From a virus (taxonomy: Duplodnaviria; Heunggongvirae; Uroviricota; Caudoviricetes): a stretch of 49,836 nucleotides of DNA. The DNA lies in IMG/VR virus record IMGVR_UViG_2563366803_000005, positions 1 to 49,836 of that record; one strand, written 5' to 3'. The notes beneath the pieces were generated by a model that made no database searches, was not told the DNA's origin, and saw only the letters and a program-made list of their open reading frames with translations. The position numbers were made by a program, and so were the translations under genes. Of the stretch, positions 3,950-13,616 are shown in pieces (positions within the stretch are counted from its first letter, which is position 1; the number at the start of each line of letters is the position of its first letter).

Positions 3950-4138
3950 TTATCCAGCCGGTGTTTCGTTATTCAGGTACAGCGATACTTTTTTTACCGG
4001 GAGGCATTCACCAGAAATTTTTTGCTCGTCTCTTGCCTGGAGGCAGGATTCTTTACTGGCATAAATTCCGGTAATCACATTCTGTGATTCACCCGTTATA
4101 AGAAAAACCGTCATCATCAGTGCAAATGCTGAAGTCAT
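3950..4138 (-). CDS. Hypothetical small protein with hydrophobic N-terminus (moron)
   Basis: 62 aa; start overlaps stop of the upstream ORF (ATGA at 4135-4138). N-terminal hydrophobic stretch (TSAFALMMTVFLITG), two Cys. AT-rich region. Confidence 0.35.
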   Translation of the reverse strand: MTSAFALMMTVFLITGESQNVITGIYASKESCLQARDEQKISGECLPVKKVSLYLNNETPAG

Positions 4139-10104: not shown

Positions 10105-10437
10105 ATGGCAAAAGTATTTACACAAGAAGAGCGGGAAAAAATTAAAGGGCAGGTTGTTGAACTTGTACGTCTGAGCGGTCGCGAGACGTTGCGGCAACTG
10201 GAAGCCAAGACAGGTGCGACAAGATATCTGATGAGTGTTCTCGCCAGAGAGCTGGTTGCCAGTGGCGATGTATACAACTCTGGTTACGGGTTATTCCCGT
10301 CTGAACAGGCGCGTAAGGACTGGCAAAACGCCCGCAAAAAACTCTCAAGGGCAAATCTGAAGAAACCATCTGTGGTTGATCCTGACCTTATCTGGTCATT
10401 ACCAGACGGAGAAATACGCCGCTACGACAGGCGTTAA
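10105..10437 (+). CDS. Hypothetical protein
   Basis: 110 aa from ATG 10105 (MAKVFTQEEREKIKG…); CCGGAGG RBS. Confidence 0.5.
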   Translation: MAKVFTQEEREKIKGQVVELVRLSGRETLRQLEAKTGATRYLMSVLARELVASGDVYNSGYGLFPSEQARKDWQNARKKLSRANLKKPSVVDPDLIWSLPDGEIRRYDRR

Positions 10438-10573
10438 AACATAATCTGTAGCGAGTGCCGGAAGAGCGAAGCTATGCAGCGTGTACTGGCTTTCTATCAG
10501 GGTAATTTTCAGAAGGTGCTGTTGTGAGCCAAATTAACAATCGGAACTTCGTGAAGAGAAAGCATAATCCAAA

Positions 10574-10624
10574 TCTGAATAATTAAGTTCAGCACTGTAA
10601 ATAAAATTTAATCCTTAACTGGAG
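10574..10624 (+). repeat. Copy A of a ~50-bp repeated regulatory element (palindrome + RBS)
   Basis: CTGAATAATTAAGTTCAGCACTGTAAATAAAATTTAATCCTTAACTGGAGG; about 85% identical to copy B at 11842-11890. Contains inverted repeat ATTAAgTT…AAtTTAAT; ends in the SD for the ORF at 10633. Confidence 0.55.
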
Positions 10625-10632
10625 GTATATCT

Positions 10633-10845
10633 ATGTCAAATACACAGAAAATTATTAACACTGAAAAATATAACGAGTGGGTGAAAAAATTCTCTGAGCA
10701 GATTTTTAAAATTACTGGCGACGAGAATGTGGCAAAAAATGAATTAGAACCGTGGACACCTGAAGGAAACGCACCAAATTATTGCTGGTGGGAGGTTGAT
10801 CCGGTTGATGCTGCAAATGAAGCCATGAGTTACCACAACGATTAA
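10633..10845 (+). CDS. Hypothetical small acidic protein
   Basis: 70 aa; GGAGG RBS 7 nt upstream; follows repeat copy A. Confidence 0.45.
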   Translation: MSNTQKIINTEKYNEWVKKFSEQIFKITGDENVAKNELEPWTPEGNAPNYCWWEVDPVDAANEAMSYHND

Positions 10846-10854
10846 TGTCGGGAG

Positions 10855-10872
10855 GCCGCCCGAAAGGGCGGT
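10855..10872 (+). promoter_or_regulatory. SD-hairpin-AUG element (CCGCCC-GAAA-GGGCGG stem-loop), copy 1
   Basis: GGGAGG (10850-10855), 6-bp G/C stem with GAAA tetraloop, then ATG at 10878. The same 22-nt element recurs at 11915-11936. Confidence 0.5.
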
Positions 10873-10877
10873 AAGAA

Positions 10878-11096
10878 ATGACTACATTATTGAGAAAAGA
10901 ATATCCGCAAAAAAGTAGGGCAACAGAATTTTTGTTTCTCATTCTGTTTATCGTATTGATGATACCGATATCCCCTCTAATTTTTGTCTGGGCAATCGGG
11001 AAAATAATTGAGCCAGTTACTGAATTGTATACCGACGTTGTATGGGCGTCGTTCAACATACTGCACAATAAAATTAATCCGTATAAGGAAAACTGA
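10878..11096 (+). CDS. Hypothetical small membrane protein
   Basis: 72 aa with a long hydrophobic segment (FLFLILFIVLMIPISPLIFVWAIG); start preceded by the hairpin element. Confidence 0.45.
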   Translation: MTTLLRKEYPQKSRATEFLFLILFIVLMIPISPLIFVWAIGKIIEPVTELYTDVVWASFNILHNKINPYKEN

Positions 11097-11097
11097 T

Positions 11098-11361
11098 ATG
11101 GCAACTTTGACAAAAAAAGAACGGGCATGGTTGAACGAATTACAGGAAGTTCTTGATCGCTGTCCATCACCGAAAAAAATTGGCTTTTACACCATTGGCG
11201 ATAAAAGCATTTACCTGTATGACCTACGCCGCATGGATGAAATCATGGAGGCTCTTGATAATCGTTCGTCGATGGATTGGTGTGTTGCTGTTCATGATAT
11301 GAATGCAGGGTTTGATGAAAAGATTTTGTTCCCCTCATCAGTTGAAAGCACTGCGGGTTAA
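11098..11361 (+). CDS. Hypothetical protein
   Basis: 87 aa from ATG 11098 (MATLTKKERAWLNELQEVL…); AAGGAAA RBS; ATG 1 nt after the upstream stop. Confidence 0.5.
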   Translation: MATLTKKERAWLNELQEVLDRCPSPKKIGFYTIGDKSIYLYDLRRMDEIMEALDNRSSMDWCVAVHDMNAGFDEKILFPSSVESTAG

Positions 11362-11371
11362 GGAGTAACAC

Positions 11372-11515
11372 ATGACCACTATTACCAAAGAACGTATTGA
11401 ATTGTTCATTAAATTTTCAGGAGGCGGTACTGTGAGTGAAATTAGCTATCAGGCTTCAATTACCGCTGGCATTCGCATCAAAGGAGAGGAGCATGGAAAT
11501 AAAACCAGAGGATGA
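11372..11515 (+). CDS. Possible 47-aa micro-ORF
   Basis: Strong RBS AAGGAG 7 nt before ATG 11372 (MTTITKERIELFIKFSGGG…); overlaps the next gene start in another frame. Below the ORF-track length cutoff. Confidence 0.3.
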   Translation: MTTITKERIELFIKFSGGGTVSEISYQASITAGIRIKGEEHGNKTRG

Positions 11516-11849
11516 GTTAAGCAATATCGTTTTATTTCCGGTAAAAGAGGATGACCCTCGTAATCAGGTTAATTTTCTTTATGAGCCATCGGAAAGACCA
11601 TATTGTCATCACGCCTCTGTCCGGGTTGACGAAAAAGAGCGTCAGGTCCGCTGTAAAATCTGCGGTGCAGTTGTGGAGCCATTTGACTGGATGCTCTCTG
11701 TGGCGAAAAGAGAAACCAGACTGGCAGATGATGTAAGGCACTTGCGCCAGGAGGAGCGGGAAAGGCGAAAAAATATAGAAAAGCTAATTCAGATTGAGCG
11801 TAACGCGAAAGCGCGGATACGCAGGGCGACAAAATCCAGAACTGAATAA
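11493..11849 (+). CDS. Hypothetical protein with putative zinc-ribbon (CHH…CKIC)
   Basis: 118 aa from ATG 11493; AAGGAGAGGAG RBS; Cys/His cluster YCHHASVRVDEKERQVRCKICG; basic C-terminus. Confidence 0.5.
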   Translation: MEIKPEDELSNIVLFPVKEDDPRNQVNFLYEPSERPYCHHASVRVDEKERQVRCKICGAVVEPFDWMLSVAKRETRLADDVRHLRQEERERRKNIEKLIQIERNAKARIRRATKSRTE

Positions 11850-11890
11850 TTAAATTTAGCTCTGTTAAAAATTTAATCCTTAACCGGAGG
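11842..11890 (+). repeat. Copy B of the ~50-bp repeated regulatory element
   Basis: CTGAATAATTAAATTTAGCTCTGTTAAAAATTTAATCCTTAACCGGAGG, with perfect inverted repeat ATTAAATTT-N12-AAATTTAAT. Confidence 0.55.
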
Positions 11891-11918
11891 GATTTCTGCA
11901 CCCTCAGAACATCAGGAG

Positions 11919-11936
11919 GCCGCCCGAAAGGGCGGT
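11919..11936 (+). promoter_or_regulatory. SD-hairpin-AUG element, copy 2
   Basis: AGGAGG then CCGCCC-GAAA-GGGCGG, then ATG at 11943. Confidence 0.5.
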
Positions 11937-11942
11937 AGTTAA

Positions 11943-12125
11943 ATGCGAAAGTTTAAAATAATTATTGAAACGGGAATAGCCGGTGGAGATTTCGAGGATG
12001 AATTCGAAGTGGATGATGATGCGACGCCTGATGAAATACATGACGAAGCAAAAGATATTTTCTTTAACTACTGCAATTACTCATATCACGAAATAAAAGA
12101 CGAAGAGGAAGAGCAAAATGGCTGA
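11943..12125 (+). CDS. Hypothetical very acidic 60-aa protein
   Basis: About one third Asp/Glu (…DFEDEFEVDDDATPDEIHDE…EIKDEEEEQNG). Confidence 0.4.
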   Translation: MRKFKIIIETGIAGGDFEDEFEVDDDATPDEIHDEAKDIFFNYCNYSYHEIKDEEEEQNG

Positions 12126-12294
12126 TTTTGGTTCAACTAAATACAACGTCAGTTTTGAAGCATGGCATGAACTGTTAATGGACTATGCAGAGTTACGTGG
12201 TGGCAGTGCTGCTGATGCTGAAGCATGGCGTGATGATTATGAAGCAGGAAAAACTCCGGTCGAAGCATATTGTGATGAGTGGGGCGATGAATGA
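12118..12294 (+). CDS. Hypothetical acidic 58-aa protein
   Basis: MADFGSTKYNVSFEAWHELLMDYAELRGG…; overlaps the upstream stop and downstream start (ATGA at 12291-12294). Below the ORF-track length cutoff; found by reading the DNA. Confidence 0.4.
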   Translation: MADFGSTKYNVSFEAWHELLMDYAELRGGSAADAEAWRDDYEAGKTPVEAYCDEWGDE

Positions 12295-12680
12295 GCGAGA
12301 TTAATTATCAGGAAGGGCATGAAACGGCAGGGCAGGCAAAACCAGTTGCATGGCGATATCGCTACGTGAAAAAAGACGTTACAGACTTTCAGGGGAAGCC
12401 GTGGGCTGGTGACTGGAAATATGTACCGACAAAAGAGGATTGTAACGACAGGCCGAACTATGAAATTCAGGCCTTATTCATCGGCCCGCCAGTCCCGGTG
12501 ACATCAGAAGGACTGGTTAAAGCCGTGCGCTTTTATGAACAGGTAAAGCGTGAGAATCCGCCAGTCGAAACAGGAGCATGGAAGGATGCTGTTGACTGGG
12601 TGCTCAGAGAGGCCTGCTGCGCTGCCATTCTGGGTAAGCCGACAATCCACCAGCATCCGGCAATCAGGTTAGCGAATTAA
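12291..12680 (+). CDS. Hypothetical protein
   Basis: 129 aa; translationally coupled to neighbours; no recognisable motif. Confidence 0.5.
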   Translation: MSEINYQEGHETAGQAKPVAWRYRYVKKDVTDFQGKPWAGDWKYVPTKEDCNDRPNYEIQALFIGPPVPVTSEGLVKAVRFYEQVKRENPPVETGAWKDAVDWVLREACCAAILGKPTIHQHPAIRLAN

Positions 12681-13105: not shown

Positions 13106-13363
13106 ATACAGCGAACGCCATTGGTTTAGTTGGATATTTACTGTGCCGGACAAAAACGGTTTGCGGGGAAATCTTAGTTAAGTAGAATGACTGCGGGTGC
13201 TTGAGGCTATCTGTCTCAGGCATGAACACCAAAAGGCAGATAGAGAAAAGCCCCAGTTAACATTACGCGTCCTGCAAGACGCTTAACATTAATCTGAGGC
13301 CATATCTATGCGACACATAGAGATTAGCCTCTTACGGACCGAAAGGTCAAGGAGAAGCAGGCT

Positions 13364-13519
13364 ATGAAGCAGCAAAAGGCGATGTTAATCGCCCTGATCG
13401 TCATCTGTTTAACCGTCATAATGACGGCACTGGTAACGAGGAAAGACCTCTGCGAGGTACGAATCCGAACCGGCCAGACGGAGGTCACTGTCTTCACAGC
13501 TTACGAACCTGAGGAGTAA
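13364..13519 (+). CDS. hok: Hok/Gef-family type I toxin
   Basis: 51 aa (MKQQKAMLIALIVICLTVIMTALVTRKDLCEVRIRTGQTEVTVFTAYEPEE); Hok pattern with one TM helix and LTRK-x-LCE-x-R motif. A 19-codon upstream ORF (13308-13367) ends in ATGA overlapping the hok start. Confidence 0.8.
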   Translation: MKQQKAMLIALIVICLTVIMTALVTRKDLCEVRIRTGQTEVTVFTAYEPEE

Positions 13520-13586: not shown

Positions 13587-13616
13587 AACCCGCTTCGGCG
13601 GGTTTTGTTTTTTCCT
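13587..13616 (+). terminator. Rho-independent terminator after hok
   Basis: CCCGC-TTCG-GCGGG hairpin followed by TTTTGTTTTTT. Confidence 0.6.

What the first reader, a model, noticed from the sequence alone, without database searches (positions are those of the whole stretch)
10850..11945. Twice-repeated SD-hairpin-AUG element (CCGCCC-GAAA-GGGCGG) before small ORFs
The 22-nt sequence AGGAGGCCGCCCGAAAGGGCGGTA occurs at 10850-10873 and 11914-11937, each placing a G/C stem with a GAAA tetraloop between a Shine-Dalgarno sequence and the ATG (10878 and 11943). SD-to-AUG spacing is about 22-27 nt, too long unless the hairpin folds and brings them together, as in the phage T4 gene 38 initiation region. 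This suggests structure-dependent or protein-regulated translation of two small genes.
Basis: seen in the sequence. Interest (0 to 1): 0.55.

Follow-up and report, generated by a model that had tools for sequence, protein, structure and literature searches.

The report
Portable hairpin-bridged ribosome-binding site in prophages
Two small prophage genes are preceded by an identical strong ribosome-binding sequence followed by a very stable RNA hairpin. This unit most likely folds to bring the binding sequence next to the start codon, and it is part of a conserved junction shared by unrelated genes in about half of complete E. coli genomes.

Summary
GGAGG-CCGCCC-GAAA-GGGCGG-TA occurs at 10851-10873 and 11915-11937, 6 and 7 nt before the annotated ATGs of a DUF4014 gene and a DUF7167 gene.

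The hairpin (-12.4 kcal/mol) forms with probability about 1. It reduces an SD-to-AUG gap of 22-23 nt to 6-7 nt, the geometry proven for phage T4 genes 38 and 25.

Comparative evidence supports that reading:
- No other SD lies before either gene.
- Homologues without the hairpin carry an ordinary SD 4-9 nt from the start.
- The hairpin always follows AGGAG[G/A] directly.
- An ORF starts 6-11 nt after the stem in 88 of 103 distinct contexts.
- Common stem polymorphisms are C-to-U changes in the 5' arm only, which keep pairing as U.G in plus-strand RNA.

It is the 3' end of a roughly 70-nt conserved intergenic junction of Rac/Qin-type lambdoid prophages. That junction is present in 2604 of 5426 complete E. 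coli genomes, is never annotated, and is joined to at least 7 unrelated downstream gene families.

Nothing supports protein regulation. Covariation is not statistically significant, and no experiment exists. Verdict: a probable new, portable member of a known mechanism, of moderate interest.

The parts
10563..10632 (+). Junction module, copy 1 (the form without a hairpin). It holds CTGAATAATTAA (10575-10586, with stop codons in all three frames), AATCCTTAAC (10610-10619) and SD1 GGAGG (10621-10625), which lies 7 nt before ATG 10633.
   Evidence: Direct repeats D1 and D4 match 11830-11897. The same linker is seen in many loci.
10633..10845 (+). 70-aa ORF (phrog_4659, function unknown). It sits between SD1 of the module and the SD-hairpin unit.
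   Evidence: PGAP CDS; PHROG match; 13 of its 14 distinct upstream contexts have GGAGG or GGGGG 7 nt before the ATG.
10845..10874 (+). 9-codon mini-ORF MSGGRPKGR. It starts in the TAATG overlap with the 70-aa ORF stop, runs through the SD and the hairpin, and stops at a TAA 3 nt before ATG 10878. It exists at site 1 only.
   Evidence: No equivalent start codon exists at site 2.
10851..10855 (+). Distal Shine-Dalgarno GGAGG of site 1, 22 nt before ATG 10878.
   Evidence: Duplex energy with the anti-SD is -9.3 kcal/mol.
10856..10871 (+). Hairpin 1: CCGCCC (10856-10861), GAAA loop (10862-10865), GGGCGG (10866-10871).
   Evidence: pair probabilities 0.98-1.0; -12.4 kcal/mol.
10872..10877 (+). A-rich spacer TAAGAA, 6 nt, with no SD.
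10878..11096 (+). DUF4014 gene (72 aa, predicted membrane protein; phrog_1832).
11830..11913 (+). Junction module, copy 2, contiguous with its hairpin. It holds CTGAATAATTAA (11842-11853; the 118-aa ORF stops at TAA 11847-11849), AATCCTTAAC (11875-11884), an unused SD1-like GGAGGG (11886-11891), the anti-SD-like CCCTC (11901-11905) and the spacer AGAACATC.
   Evidence: In context A the conserved block spans -48 to +23 relative to GGAGG.
11914..11919 (+). Distal Shine-Dalgarno AGGAGG of site 2, 23 nt before ATG 11943.
11920..11935 (+). Hairpin 2: CCGCCC-GAAA-GGGCGG.
11936..11942 (+). Spacer TAGTTAA, 7 nt, with no SD.
11943..12125 (+). DUF7167 gene (60 aa, acidic; phrog_1997).

Best explanation
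The unit AGGAG[G/A]-CCGCCC-GAAA-GGGCGG-TA(A/G) is a hairpin-bridged ('split') translation-initiation region on the rightward early mRNA of a Rac/Qin-type lambdoid prophage.

Shown here:
- The 6-bp G/C stem with a GNRA tetraloop forms essentially always.
- The only strong SD for each of the two genes lies immediately 5' of the stem, 22-23 nt from the AUG.
- With the stem folded, the single-stranded path from SD to AUG is 6-7 nt. Across the whole family it is 6-11 nt.
- The unit is the 3' end of a roughly 70-nt conserved intergenic junction. The junction also carries a 12-nt motif with stops in all three frames, and it is joined to many unrelated upstream and downstream genes.

Inferred:
- The 30S subunit binds the distal SD while the hairpin loops out, so the AUG reaches the P site, as demonstrated for T4 genes 38 and 25.
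- Because the unit is nearly identical everywhere, it also serves as a homology patch. Phage recombinases (RecET/Red type) could use it to swap gene cassettes while each incoming gene receives a ready-made ribosome-binding site.
For: Anatomy and chance.

Folding. The stem alone is -12.4 kcal/mol, or -14.4 with a seventh pair that uses the last SD base. Pair probability is 0.98-1.0 in short and long contexts. Local z-scores are -3.8 and -3.3.

No alternative SD. Among the 67 annotated CDS of this prophage, the median best canonical SD is -5.8 kcal/mol. These two genes have only GGCGGU there, locked in the stem, plus a -9.3 kcal/mol SD at a gap of 21-22 nt. Only one other CDS has a strong distal SD.

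Natural controls:
- DUF4014 homologues without the hairpin (13 contexts) have AAAGGAGAGTGAT-ATG or GGGAGTGAT-ATG.
- Ead-like homologues without it have TAAGGAAAACTGAA-ATG.
- The 70-aa ORF has GGAGG 7 nt before its ATG.
- Hairpin-bearing contexts of DUF7167, DUF4014, Ead-like and MQEIK genes have no GGAG, GAGG or AGGA between stem and ATG.

Tight coupling to the start codon. In 103 distinct contexts, 88 have an ORF of at least 30 aa starting 6, 7, 9, 10 or 11 nt after the stem. Most of the rest are frameshifted copies. In the fetched loci the hairpin is never without the SD.

RNA-level constraint. In 73 contigs ascertained only on an upstream anchor, C-to-U in the 5' arm is seen 18 times in 365 C sites. 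G-to-A in the 3' arm is seen 0 times in 365 G sites, although G-to-A is common at nearby unpaired G positions. The last SD base varies G/A opposite a U. Loop variants GGAA and GGCA keep the GNRA form. One G-C to A-U double change exists, in L422. All variants still fold.

Portability. The exact 21-mer is in at least 119 viral contigs. The 69-nt module is in 2604 of 5426 E. coli genomes, at 4108 places. At least 7 downstream gene families follow it. Identity drops sharply on both sides of the module.

Precedent: T4 gene 38 (22 nt reduced to 5) and gene 25 (27 nt reduced to 11), PMC3014915.
Against: There is no experimental readout of translation.

Covariation statistics do not exceed shuffles, because variation is low and mostly one-sided.

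Nearly all sequences come from E. coli-type prophages. The extreme conservation could therefore partly reflect recent spread by recombination rather than selection.

One downstream family (Q-like, DUF1133 type) has its own GGAG 6-7 nt before the ATG, after the hairpin. Five contexts have no ATG after the stem. The unit is thus sometimes present without being needed as an RBS.

The hairpin sequence itself is generic. It occurs in many unrelated viral contigs, mostly as terminator stems.

At site 2, long-context folds pair the SD with upstream UCCU or CCUC (unpaired probability 0.03-0.29), so the SD may not be freely accessible.
Confidence: 0.6

Rival explanations
1. Recombination linker only. 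The roughly 70-nt module, hairpin included, is a conserved boundary sequence that persists because homologous recombination between prophages keeps copying it. The hairpin has no role in translation, and the genes initiate weakly on the A-rich spacer without an SD.
For: The module is flanked by unrelated sequence on both sides. It joins many gene families. Breakpoints lie exactly at or inside the stem in L208, L075/L167/L350 and L387/L407. The 21-mer is invariant in 104 of 116 distinct contexts. The concept of boundary sequences is established.
Against: This reading does not explain several observations:
- An SD always abuts the stem.
- The stem-to-ATG distance stays within 6-11 nt.
- Hairpin-less homologues carry a proximal SD, while hairpin-bearing ones carry none.
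- Stem polymorphism is strand-asymmetric and compatible with wobble pairing.

The linker role is also compatible with the best explanation rather than exclusive of it.
Confidence: 0.15
2. mRNA stability or processing element. The stable hairpin would act as a 3'-exonuclease barrier for the upstream cistron, or as a protective 5' stem for the downstream cistron after RNase E cleavage in the AU-rich spacer.
For: The hairpin is very stable and intercistronic. At site 1 it lies 10 nt after a stop codon. Five contexts have no downstream ATG.
Against: Its position is fixed relative to the downstream start (6-11 nt) but variable relative to the upstream stop (10 nt in context B, about 70 nt in context A). 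A barrier function does not require an abutting SD. The stem is too short for RNase III, which needs about 20 bp (established knowledge).
Confidence: 0.1
3. Operator for an RNA-binding protein. A phage or host protein would recognise the GNRA hairpin, as lambda N recognises boxB or as a translational repressor recognises its operator, and would co-regulate all genes that carry it.
For: The sequence, not just the structure, is nearly invariant across unrelated genes, loop included. There are several copies per operon and up to 6 per genome. The hairpin resembles lambda boxB, GCCCU-GAAAA-AGGGC (my own knowledge).
Against: No boxA-like CGCTCTT lies upstream. The copies sit next to start codons inside the operon, not once just after a promoter. 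No candidate binding protein was identified. Variants with U.G pairs and with GGCA or GGAA loops are tolerated at appreciable frequency.
Confidence: 0.07
4. Coupling through an upstream mini-ORF (site 1 only). Ribosomes ending the 70-aa ORF would restart at the overlapping ATG 10845, translate MSGGRPKGR through the hairpin, stop 3 nt before ATG 10878 and reinitiate there.
For: The TAATG overlap and the in-frame TAA right after the stem. This arrangement is kept in all 18 distinct context-B sequences.
Against: Site 2 and all context-A copies have no start codon for such an ORF. It therefore cannot explain the shared unit.
Confidence: 0.05
5. Intrinsic transcription terminator or attenuator.
For: The same hairpin sequence serves as a terminator stem followed by T-runs in unrelated viral contigs.
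Against: Here the stem is followed by TAAGAAATG or TAGTTAAATG, with no U-tract on either strand. The terminator scan does not call it. The genes downstream belong to the same operon.
Confidence: 0.02

Closest known systems
Split (hairpin-bridged) translation-initiation regions of phage T4 genes 38 and 25 (Nivinskas et al. 1999; Malys and Nivinskas 2009; reviewed in PMC3014915)
   Same: The SD lies at a non-functional linear distance: 22 nt for gene 38 and 27 nt for gene 25, against 22-23 nt here. A stable stem-loop lies wholly between the SD and the AUG. The effective spacing after folding is 5-11 nt in T4 and 6-7 nt here (6-11 nt across the family). The structure is conserved among relatives.
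   Different: The T4 structures are specific to one gene junction each. Here one near-identical cassette precedes at least 7 unrelated gene families, occurs several times per genome, and sits at mosaic boundaries. It is in a temperate lambdoid prophage, not a T-even phage. Function is proven in T4 and only inferred here.
Short conserved boundary ('linker') sequences at mosaic junctions of lambdoid phages (the Susskind-Botstein modular model; HK620 analysis of Clark et al. 2001, from my own knowledge; the concept is cited in PMC3029335)
   Same: A short, highly conserved intergenic sequence lies between non-homologous genes at gene borders, with an abrupt loss of similarity on both sides.
   Different: This one has a defined internal anatomy: a three-frame stop motif, two SD sequences and a tetraloop hairpin. 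It also has a plausible expression function. I found no description of this particular sequence.
Lambda boxB / nut sites
   Same: A short G/C stem capped by a GNRA-type loop on an early phage transcript.
   Different: The loop is a tetraloop rather than a pentaloop. There is no boxA. The position is next to start codons, several times per operon. No N-like protein was identified.
Intercistronic stabiliser hairpins and REP elements
   Same: A stable hairpin in an intercistronic region of a polycistronic mRNA, repeated in the genome.
   Different: It is fixed to the downstream start codon and to an abutting SD. It is confined to prophages. It is a single 16-nt stem-loop rather than a REP-type imperfect palindrome.

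Membership tests
Hairpin-bridged (split) SD initiation region, T4 gene 38/25 type | Strong SD at a linear distance too long for direct use (more than about 15 nt from the start codon) | tested here: met
   GGAGG ends 22 nt (site 1) and 23 nt (site 2) before the ATG. Duplex energy is -9.3 kcal/mol at a gap of 21-22 nt.
Hairpin-bridged (split) SD initiation region, T4 gene 38/25 type | Stable local stem-loop lying entirely between the SD and the start codon | tested here: met
   -12.4 kcal/mol, pair probability 0.98-1.0 in all contexts.
Hairpin-bridged (split) SD initiation region, T4 gene 38/25 type | Effective SD-AUG spacing of about 5-11 nt once the stem is folded | tested here: met
   6 and 7 nt in the window. 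Across 88 contexts the spacings are 6, 7, 9, 10 and 11 nt.
Hairpin-bridged (split) SD initiation region, T4 gene 38/25 type | No alternative accessible SD at canonical distance | tested here: met
   Only GGCGGU is found there, and it lies inside the stem. No GGAG, GAGG or AGGA lies between stem and ATG in four of the five hairpin-bearing families tested; the Q-like family is the exception.
Hairpin-bridged (split) SD initiation region, T4 gene 38/25 type | Structure conserved in relatives, with changes that preserve pairing | tested here: inconclusive
   Common polymorphisms are wobble-only and confined to the 5' arm, and there is one compensatory change. Covariation does not exceed shuffles.
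Hairpin-bridged (split) SD initiation region, T4 gene 38/25 type | Stem-destabilising mutations lower translation and compensatory mutations restore it | not testable with these tools
   Requires reporter fusions or toeprinting.
Conserved boundary (linker) sequence at lambdoid mosaic junctions | Short conserved sequence at a gene border, flanked by non-homologous genes in different phages | tested here: met
   The conserved block runs from -48 to +23, with majority identity falling to about 40-60% on both sides. At least 7 downstream families and several upstream 3' ends are joined to it.
Conserved boundary (linker) sequence at lambdoid mosaic junctions | Recombination actually takes place within it | tested here: inconclusive
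   Junctions lie at or inside the stem in L208, L075, L167, L350, L387 and L407. The mechanism and its frequency are not shown.
Lambda-type nut site (boxA + boxB) | boxA (CGCTCTT-like) a few nt upstream of the hairpin | tested here: not met
   Upstream is CTGCACCCTCAGAACATCA in context A or ACGATTAATGTC in context B.
Lambda-type nut site (boxA + boxB) | A single site just downstream of an early promoter | tested here: not met
   Two copies lie about 4 kb and about 5 kb into the operon, each next to a start codon.
Intrinsic terminator | U-tract immediately 3' of a G/C-rich stem | tested here: not met
   The stem is followed by TAAGAAATG or TAGTTAAATG, and the scan does not call it.
Any curated RNA family (Rfam 15) | Match to a covariance model | tested here: not met
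   No match at either site, even at E-values up to 5.

The most novel reading that the evidence does not exclude
The junction module may be a natural 'cassette adaptor'. It combines a three-frame stop, an insulated spacer and a self-contained hairpin-bridged RBS. This would let RecET/Red-type recombinases shuffle accessory genes among lambdoid prophages while guaranteeing termination of the upstream gene and expression of the incoming one. That would be an integron-like cassette system without an integrase. The invariant GNRA hairpin might in addition be a common operator that co-regulates all cassettes.
Probability: 0.15. Interest if true: 0.7.

Novelty: new member of a known kind. Interest (0 to 1): 0.45.

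Why it matters
Only two natural hairpin-bridged ribosome-binding sites, both in phage T4, are established textbook cases. If this one is confirmed, it would be a third, and the first that is portable.

The same 23-nt cassette serves at least seven unrelated gene families and is present, unannotated, in about half of complete E. coli genomes, including EDL933 and ST131 strains. That has four consequences:
- It would show that the mechanism is used by temperate phages as a general-purpose expression module.
- It would give start-site and RBS predictors a concrete class of 'SD-less' genes to correct.
- It would provide a compact natural part for synthetic biology, namely an RBS insulated from upstream context by a stable stem.
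- It would offer a defined sequence at which to test the long-standing 'boundary sequence' model of phage mosaicism.

Tried and rejected

2. The exact 21-mer in L039 looked like use of the element in a P2-like phage. It actually lies inside a gpM-like coding region, in frame as QEAARKGG, and is unrelated.

3. A putative diverged variant, CGGCTTGATAAAGGCTG, is an artefact inside a coding region of the opposite strand.

4. I considered a second upstream helix (GAGGG 11887-11891 with CCCUC 11901-05) and an alternative pairing of CCUC with the SD. The substitution pattern does not support either: 3 wobble changes against 6 breaks. A change in L060 that looked compensatory turned out to be a U-U mismatch.

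5. Rfam gave no match. The terminator and promoter scans found nothing at the element.

6. Literature searches for the sequence, for 'split Shine-Dalgarno', and for lambdoid linker or stem-loop RBS found no description of this element.

7. I asked whether different upstream genes use different frames of CTGAATAATTAA. Only the xCT-GAA-TAA frame is clearly used, by several unrelated 3' ends. The second frame rests on unannotated short open stretches, so I do not claim it.
Full report
**Observation.** The sequence is as described, with small corrections.

- CCGCCC-GAAA-GGGCGG occurs exactly twice in the 49.8-kb window, at 10856-10871 and 11920-11935. Dinucleotide shuffles predict 0.02 occurrences.
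- The repeat extends to 26 nt at 25/26 identity, TC[G/A]GGAGGCCGCCCGAAAGGGCGGTA (D5).
- GGAGG abuts the stem at both sites.
- The ATGs at 10878 and 11943 follow the stem by 6 and 7 nt, so the linear SD-to-AUG gap is 22 and 23 nt.
- Both ATGs are the PGAP-annotated starts of a DUF4014 protein (72 aa) and a DUF7167 protein (60 aa) in identical E. coli genomes.
- The Pfam and PHROG profiles align from residue 1-2 of each protein.
- An in-frame TAA lies just upstream of each ATG (two codons before ATG 10878, immediately before ATG 11943).
- A permissive scan of both strands for 'SD, stem of at least 5 bp, then the start of an ORF of at least 40 aa within 3-12 nt' finds only these two sites.

**Context.** The window is a complete lambdoid prophage, running from integrase to tail fibres and lying next to potB. 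Its early region is of the Rac/Qin type (dicB, RelBE, YdaT, hokD/sok, RusA, a DUF1133 Q-like gene) and its structural genes are lambda-like. Both sites lie in the rightward early operon. They come after the replication genes, within a run of small genes of unknown function.

**Folding.**
- The stem alone is worth -12.4 kcal/mol. It reaches -14.4 kcal/mol if the last SD base pairs with the U after the stem.
- All six pairs have probability 0.98-1.0 in 61-nt, 100-nt and roughly 150-nt contexts.
- The local folds have z-scores of -3.8 and -3.3.
- At site 1 the first four SD bases are mostly unpaired (0.79-1.0).
- At site 2, long contexts pair the SD with upstream UCCU or CCUC (unpaired probability 0.03-0.29). 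The substitution pattern does not support these weak helices.

**The element is not a local duplication.**
- The exact 21-mer GGAGGCCGCCCGAAAGGGCGG is in at least 119 IMG/VR contigs.
- A 69-nt module ending in the hairpin is present in 2604 of 5426 complete E. coli genomes, at 4108 places and up to 6 per genome. No feature is annotated under it.
- The module is also in 21 deposited phage genomes: Rac-type phages, ArgO145-type Stx2a phages and mEp460.
- In the commonest context (A), the conserved block runs from about -48 to +23 relative to GGAGG: AAATTTAATCCTTAACCGGAGGGATTTCTGCACCCTCAGAACATCA-GGAGG-hairpin-TA. Identity falls abruptly on both sides.
- Further upstream the module usually begins with CTGAATAATTAA, which has stop codons in all three frames. 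Several unrelated upstream genes end in it as xCT-GAA-TAA.

**How the window carries the module.** It carries it twice.
- At 11830-11937 the module is contiguous.
- At site 1 it is split. The left part (10563-10632) ends in SD1, GGAGG, 7 nt before the ATG of a 70-aa ORF. The SD-hairpin unit follows that ORF's stop.

**Downstream genes.**
- At least seven unrelated families follow the unit: DUF7167; DUF4014 (several subtypes); Ead/Ea22-like; an MQEIKENIRQ family; a Q-like DUF1133-type protein; an MAELTKEW family; and an MLTLKHFID family.
- Among 103 distinct contexts, 88 have an ORF of at least 30 aa starting 6, 7, 9, 10 or 11 nt after the stem (34, 27, 21, 1 and 5 cases).
- About ten more are frameshifted copies of the same genes.
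- Five contexts diverge right at the 3' edge of the stem and have no ATG.
- In all fetched loci the hairpin of this module is never found without AGGAG[G/A/T] directly 5' of it, and the context-A linker is never found without the hairpin.

**Tests of the split-SD reading.**

1. *Other genes in the prophage.* Among the 67 annotated CDS, the median best anti-SD duplex at canonical distance is -5.8 kcal/mol. The two hairpin genes have only GGCGGU there, which is part of the stem. They also have a top-class SD (-9.3 kcal/mol) at a gap of 21-22 nt. Only one other CDS has a strong distal SD-like sequence.

2. *Natural controls.* DUF4014 homologues that lack the unit (13 distinct contexts) have AAAGGAGAGTGAT-ATG/GTG or AATGGGAGTGAT-ATG. 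Ead-like homologues without it have TAAGGAAAACTGAA-ATG. Of the 14 distinct contexts of the 70-aa ORF, 13 lack the hairpin and have GGAGG (GGGGG in one) 7 nt before the ATG. The hairpin-bearing contexts of DUF7167, DUF4014, Ead-like and MQEIK genes have no GGAG, GAGG or AGGA between stem and ATG. Homology between the two classes breaks at the start codon.

3. *Geometry.* With the stem folded, the spacing is 6-7 nt here and 6-11 nt across the family. In T4 the values are 5 nt for gene 38 and 11 nt for gene 25. There, mutational, reporter and probing work established that an intervening hairpin makes a distant SD functional (PMC3014915).

**Selection on structure.**
- The first sample was biased towards the exact 21-mer, so I took a second sample anchored only on the upstream motif TCCTTAACCGGAGGGATT.
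- In 73 such contigs the polymorphisms above 10% are three linker positions and the last SD base (G to A, 14%, opposite the U after the stem); C-to-U changes are also common at two positions of the 5' arm (15% and 8%).
- C-to-U in the 5' arm totals 18 of 365 sites. G-to-A in the 3' arm totals 0 of 365, although G-to-A is frequent at unpaired G positions nearby.
- C-to-U keeps pairing as U.G only in the plus-strand RNA. A DNA palindrome or a minus-strand RNA would show the opposite pattern or none.
- Across 37 haplotypes, 93.8% of cells are paired.
- Loop variants GGAA and GGCA keep the GNRA form, while UAAA and AAAA are rare. AAAA occurs in the contexts that lack a downstream ATG.
- There is one compensatory change, G-C to A-U, in L422, within a lineage that otherwise has the A.C intermediate.
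- All variants still fold over the same span, at -3.3 to -12.4 kcal/mol.
- The formal covariation measures do not exceed shuffled controls, and the sequences are related. This evidence is suggestive, not decisive.

**Evidence that tempers the reading.**
- The Q-like family has its own GGAG 6-7 nt before the ATG, downstream of the hairpin.
- Five contexts have no start codon after the stem.
- The bare hairpin sequence is common in unrelated viral contigs, mostly as a terminator stem with a T-run. The specific entity is therefore SD plus hairpin plus TA(A/G) inside the module, not the stem alone.
- At site 1 only, a 9-codon ORF (ATG 10845 to TAA 10874, MSGGRPKGR) overlaps the preceding stop as TAATG and ends 3 nt before ATG 10878. 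It could add translational coupling there, but it cannot explain the shared unit.

**Rival explanations.**
- *Pure recombination linker.* This explains the distribution. It does not explain the SD-stem-ATG geometry, the complementarity with proximal SDs, or the strand-asymmetric polymorphism.
- *Stability element.* This is not tied to the downstream start by any known logic.
- *Protein operator or boxB-like site.* There is no boxA, the position and copy number are wrong for a nut site, and no binding protein is known.
- *Terminator.* Excluded by the absence of a U-tract.
- No Rfam family matches.
- I found no paper describing this element.

**Conclusion.** The most likely function is a hairpin-bridged ribosome-binding site of the T4 gene 38/25 kind (confidence about 0.6). 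It is embedded in a portable junction module that marks mosaic boundaries in Rac/Qin-type lambdoid prophages, and it probably also serves as a homology patch for cassette exchange (inferred). It is a new and unusually portable member of a known mechanism. It is worth a simple reporter test, but it is not a new kind of system.

Noticed in passing
window 10575-10586 and 11842-11853: The motif CTGAATAATTAA at the left edge of the junction module carries stop codons in all three frames (TGA, TAA, TAA). It lies within an AT-rich inverted repeat (CTGAAT..ATTYAG) whose arms vary between loci (CTGAAT/ATTCAG, CTGAAT/ATTTAG, CTGA/TCAG).
   Followed up: partly
window 11875-11919: The module contains two anti-SD-like stretches, UCCU in AAUCCUUAAC and CCCUC. 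They lie between an unused SD-like GGAGGG (11886-11891) and the functional AGGAGG. Folds pair them with either SD, but substitutions do not support these helices.
   Followed up: yes
window 10845-10874: A 9-codon mini-ORF MSGGRPKGR overlaps the stop of the 70-aa ORF (TAATG), spans the SD and the hairpin, and ends 3 nt before the DUF4014 ATG. It is present only in this context.
   Followed up: partly
window 10621-10632 compared with 11886-11913: The 70-aa ORF cassette occupies exactly the place of the 24-nt spacer GATTTCTGCACCCTCAGAACATCA between SD1 and the SD-hairpin unit. The ORF therefore behaves like a cassette inserted into, or deleted from, the module.
   Followed up: no
window 13195-13519: A hokD/sok type I toxin-antitoxin locus: Rfam sok at 106.7 bits (13195-13366) and the hokD CDS at 13364-13519. 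A terminator-like hairpin lies at 13587-13604.
   Followed up: no
window 10504-10542 and 11412-11450: A 39-nt direct repeat (77% identity) links the 3' end region of the DUF977 pseudogene to the 47-aa ORF at 11372-11515. This suggests a further duplicated or recombined segment.
   Followed up: no
window 10105-10527: The DUF977 (YdaW/LygF-like) gene is annotated as a pseudogene with an internal stop in the identical genomes. About 105 nt of apparently non-coding sequence follows before the next gene.
   Followed up: no
L124 (Xanthomonas pisi contig, 427 nt); phage record PP818812.1 (Actinobacillus phage vB_Apl-pPE4): E. coli-type prophage sequence appears in records assigned to unrelated hosts: a DUF4014 gene at 90% identity, and the 69-nt module at 100% identity. 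The likely causes are contamination or misassignment.
   Followed up: no
L208 (3 loci), L075/L167/L350, L387/L407: Rearrangement junctions fall inside the hairpin or exactly at its 3' edge. In L208 the 5' arm is replaced, leaving GCCC-GAAA-GGGC. This hints that the stem is a preferred breakpoint.
   Followed up: partly
L451 compared with the window: Strain C7 (NZ_CP059279.1) is identical to the window over 10400-12400. Over the full 49.8 kb it is out of register by small indels elsewhere, so the window comes from a closely related but not identical prophage.
   Followed up: no
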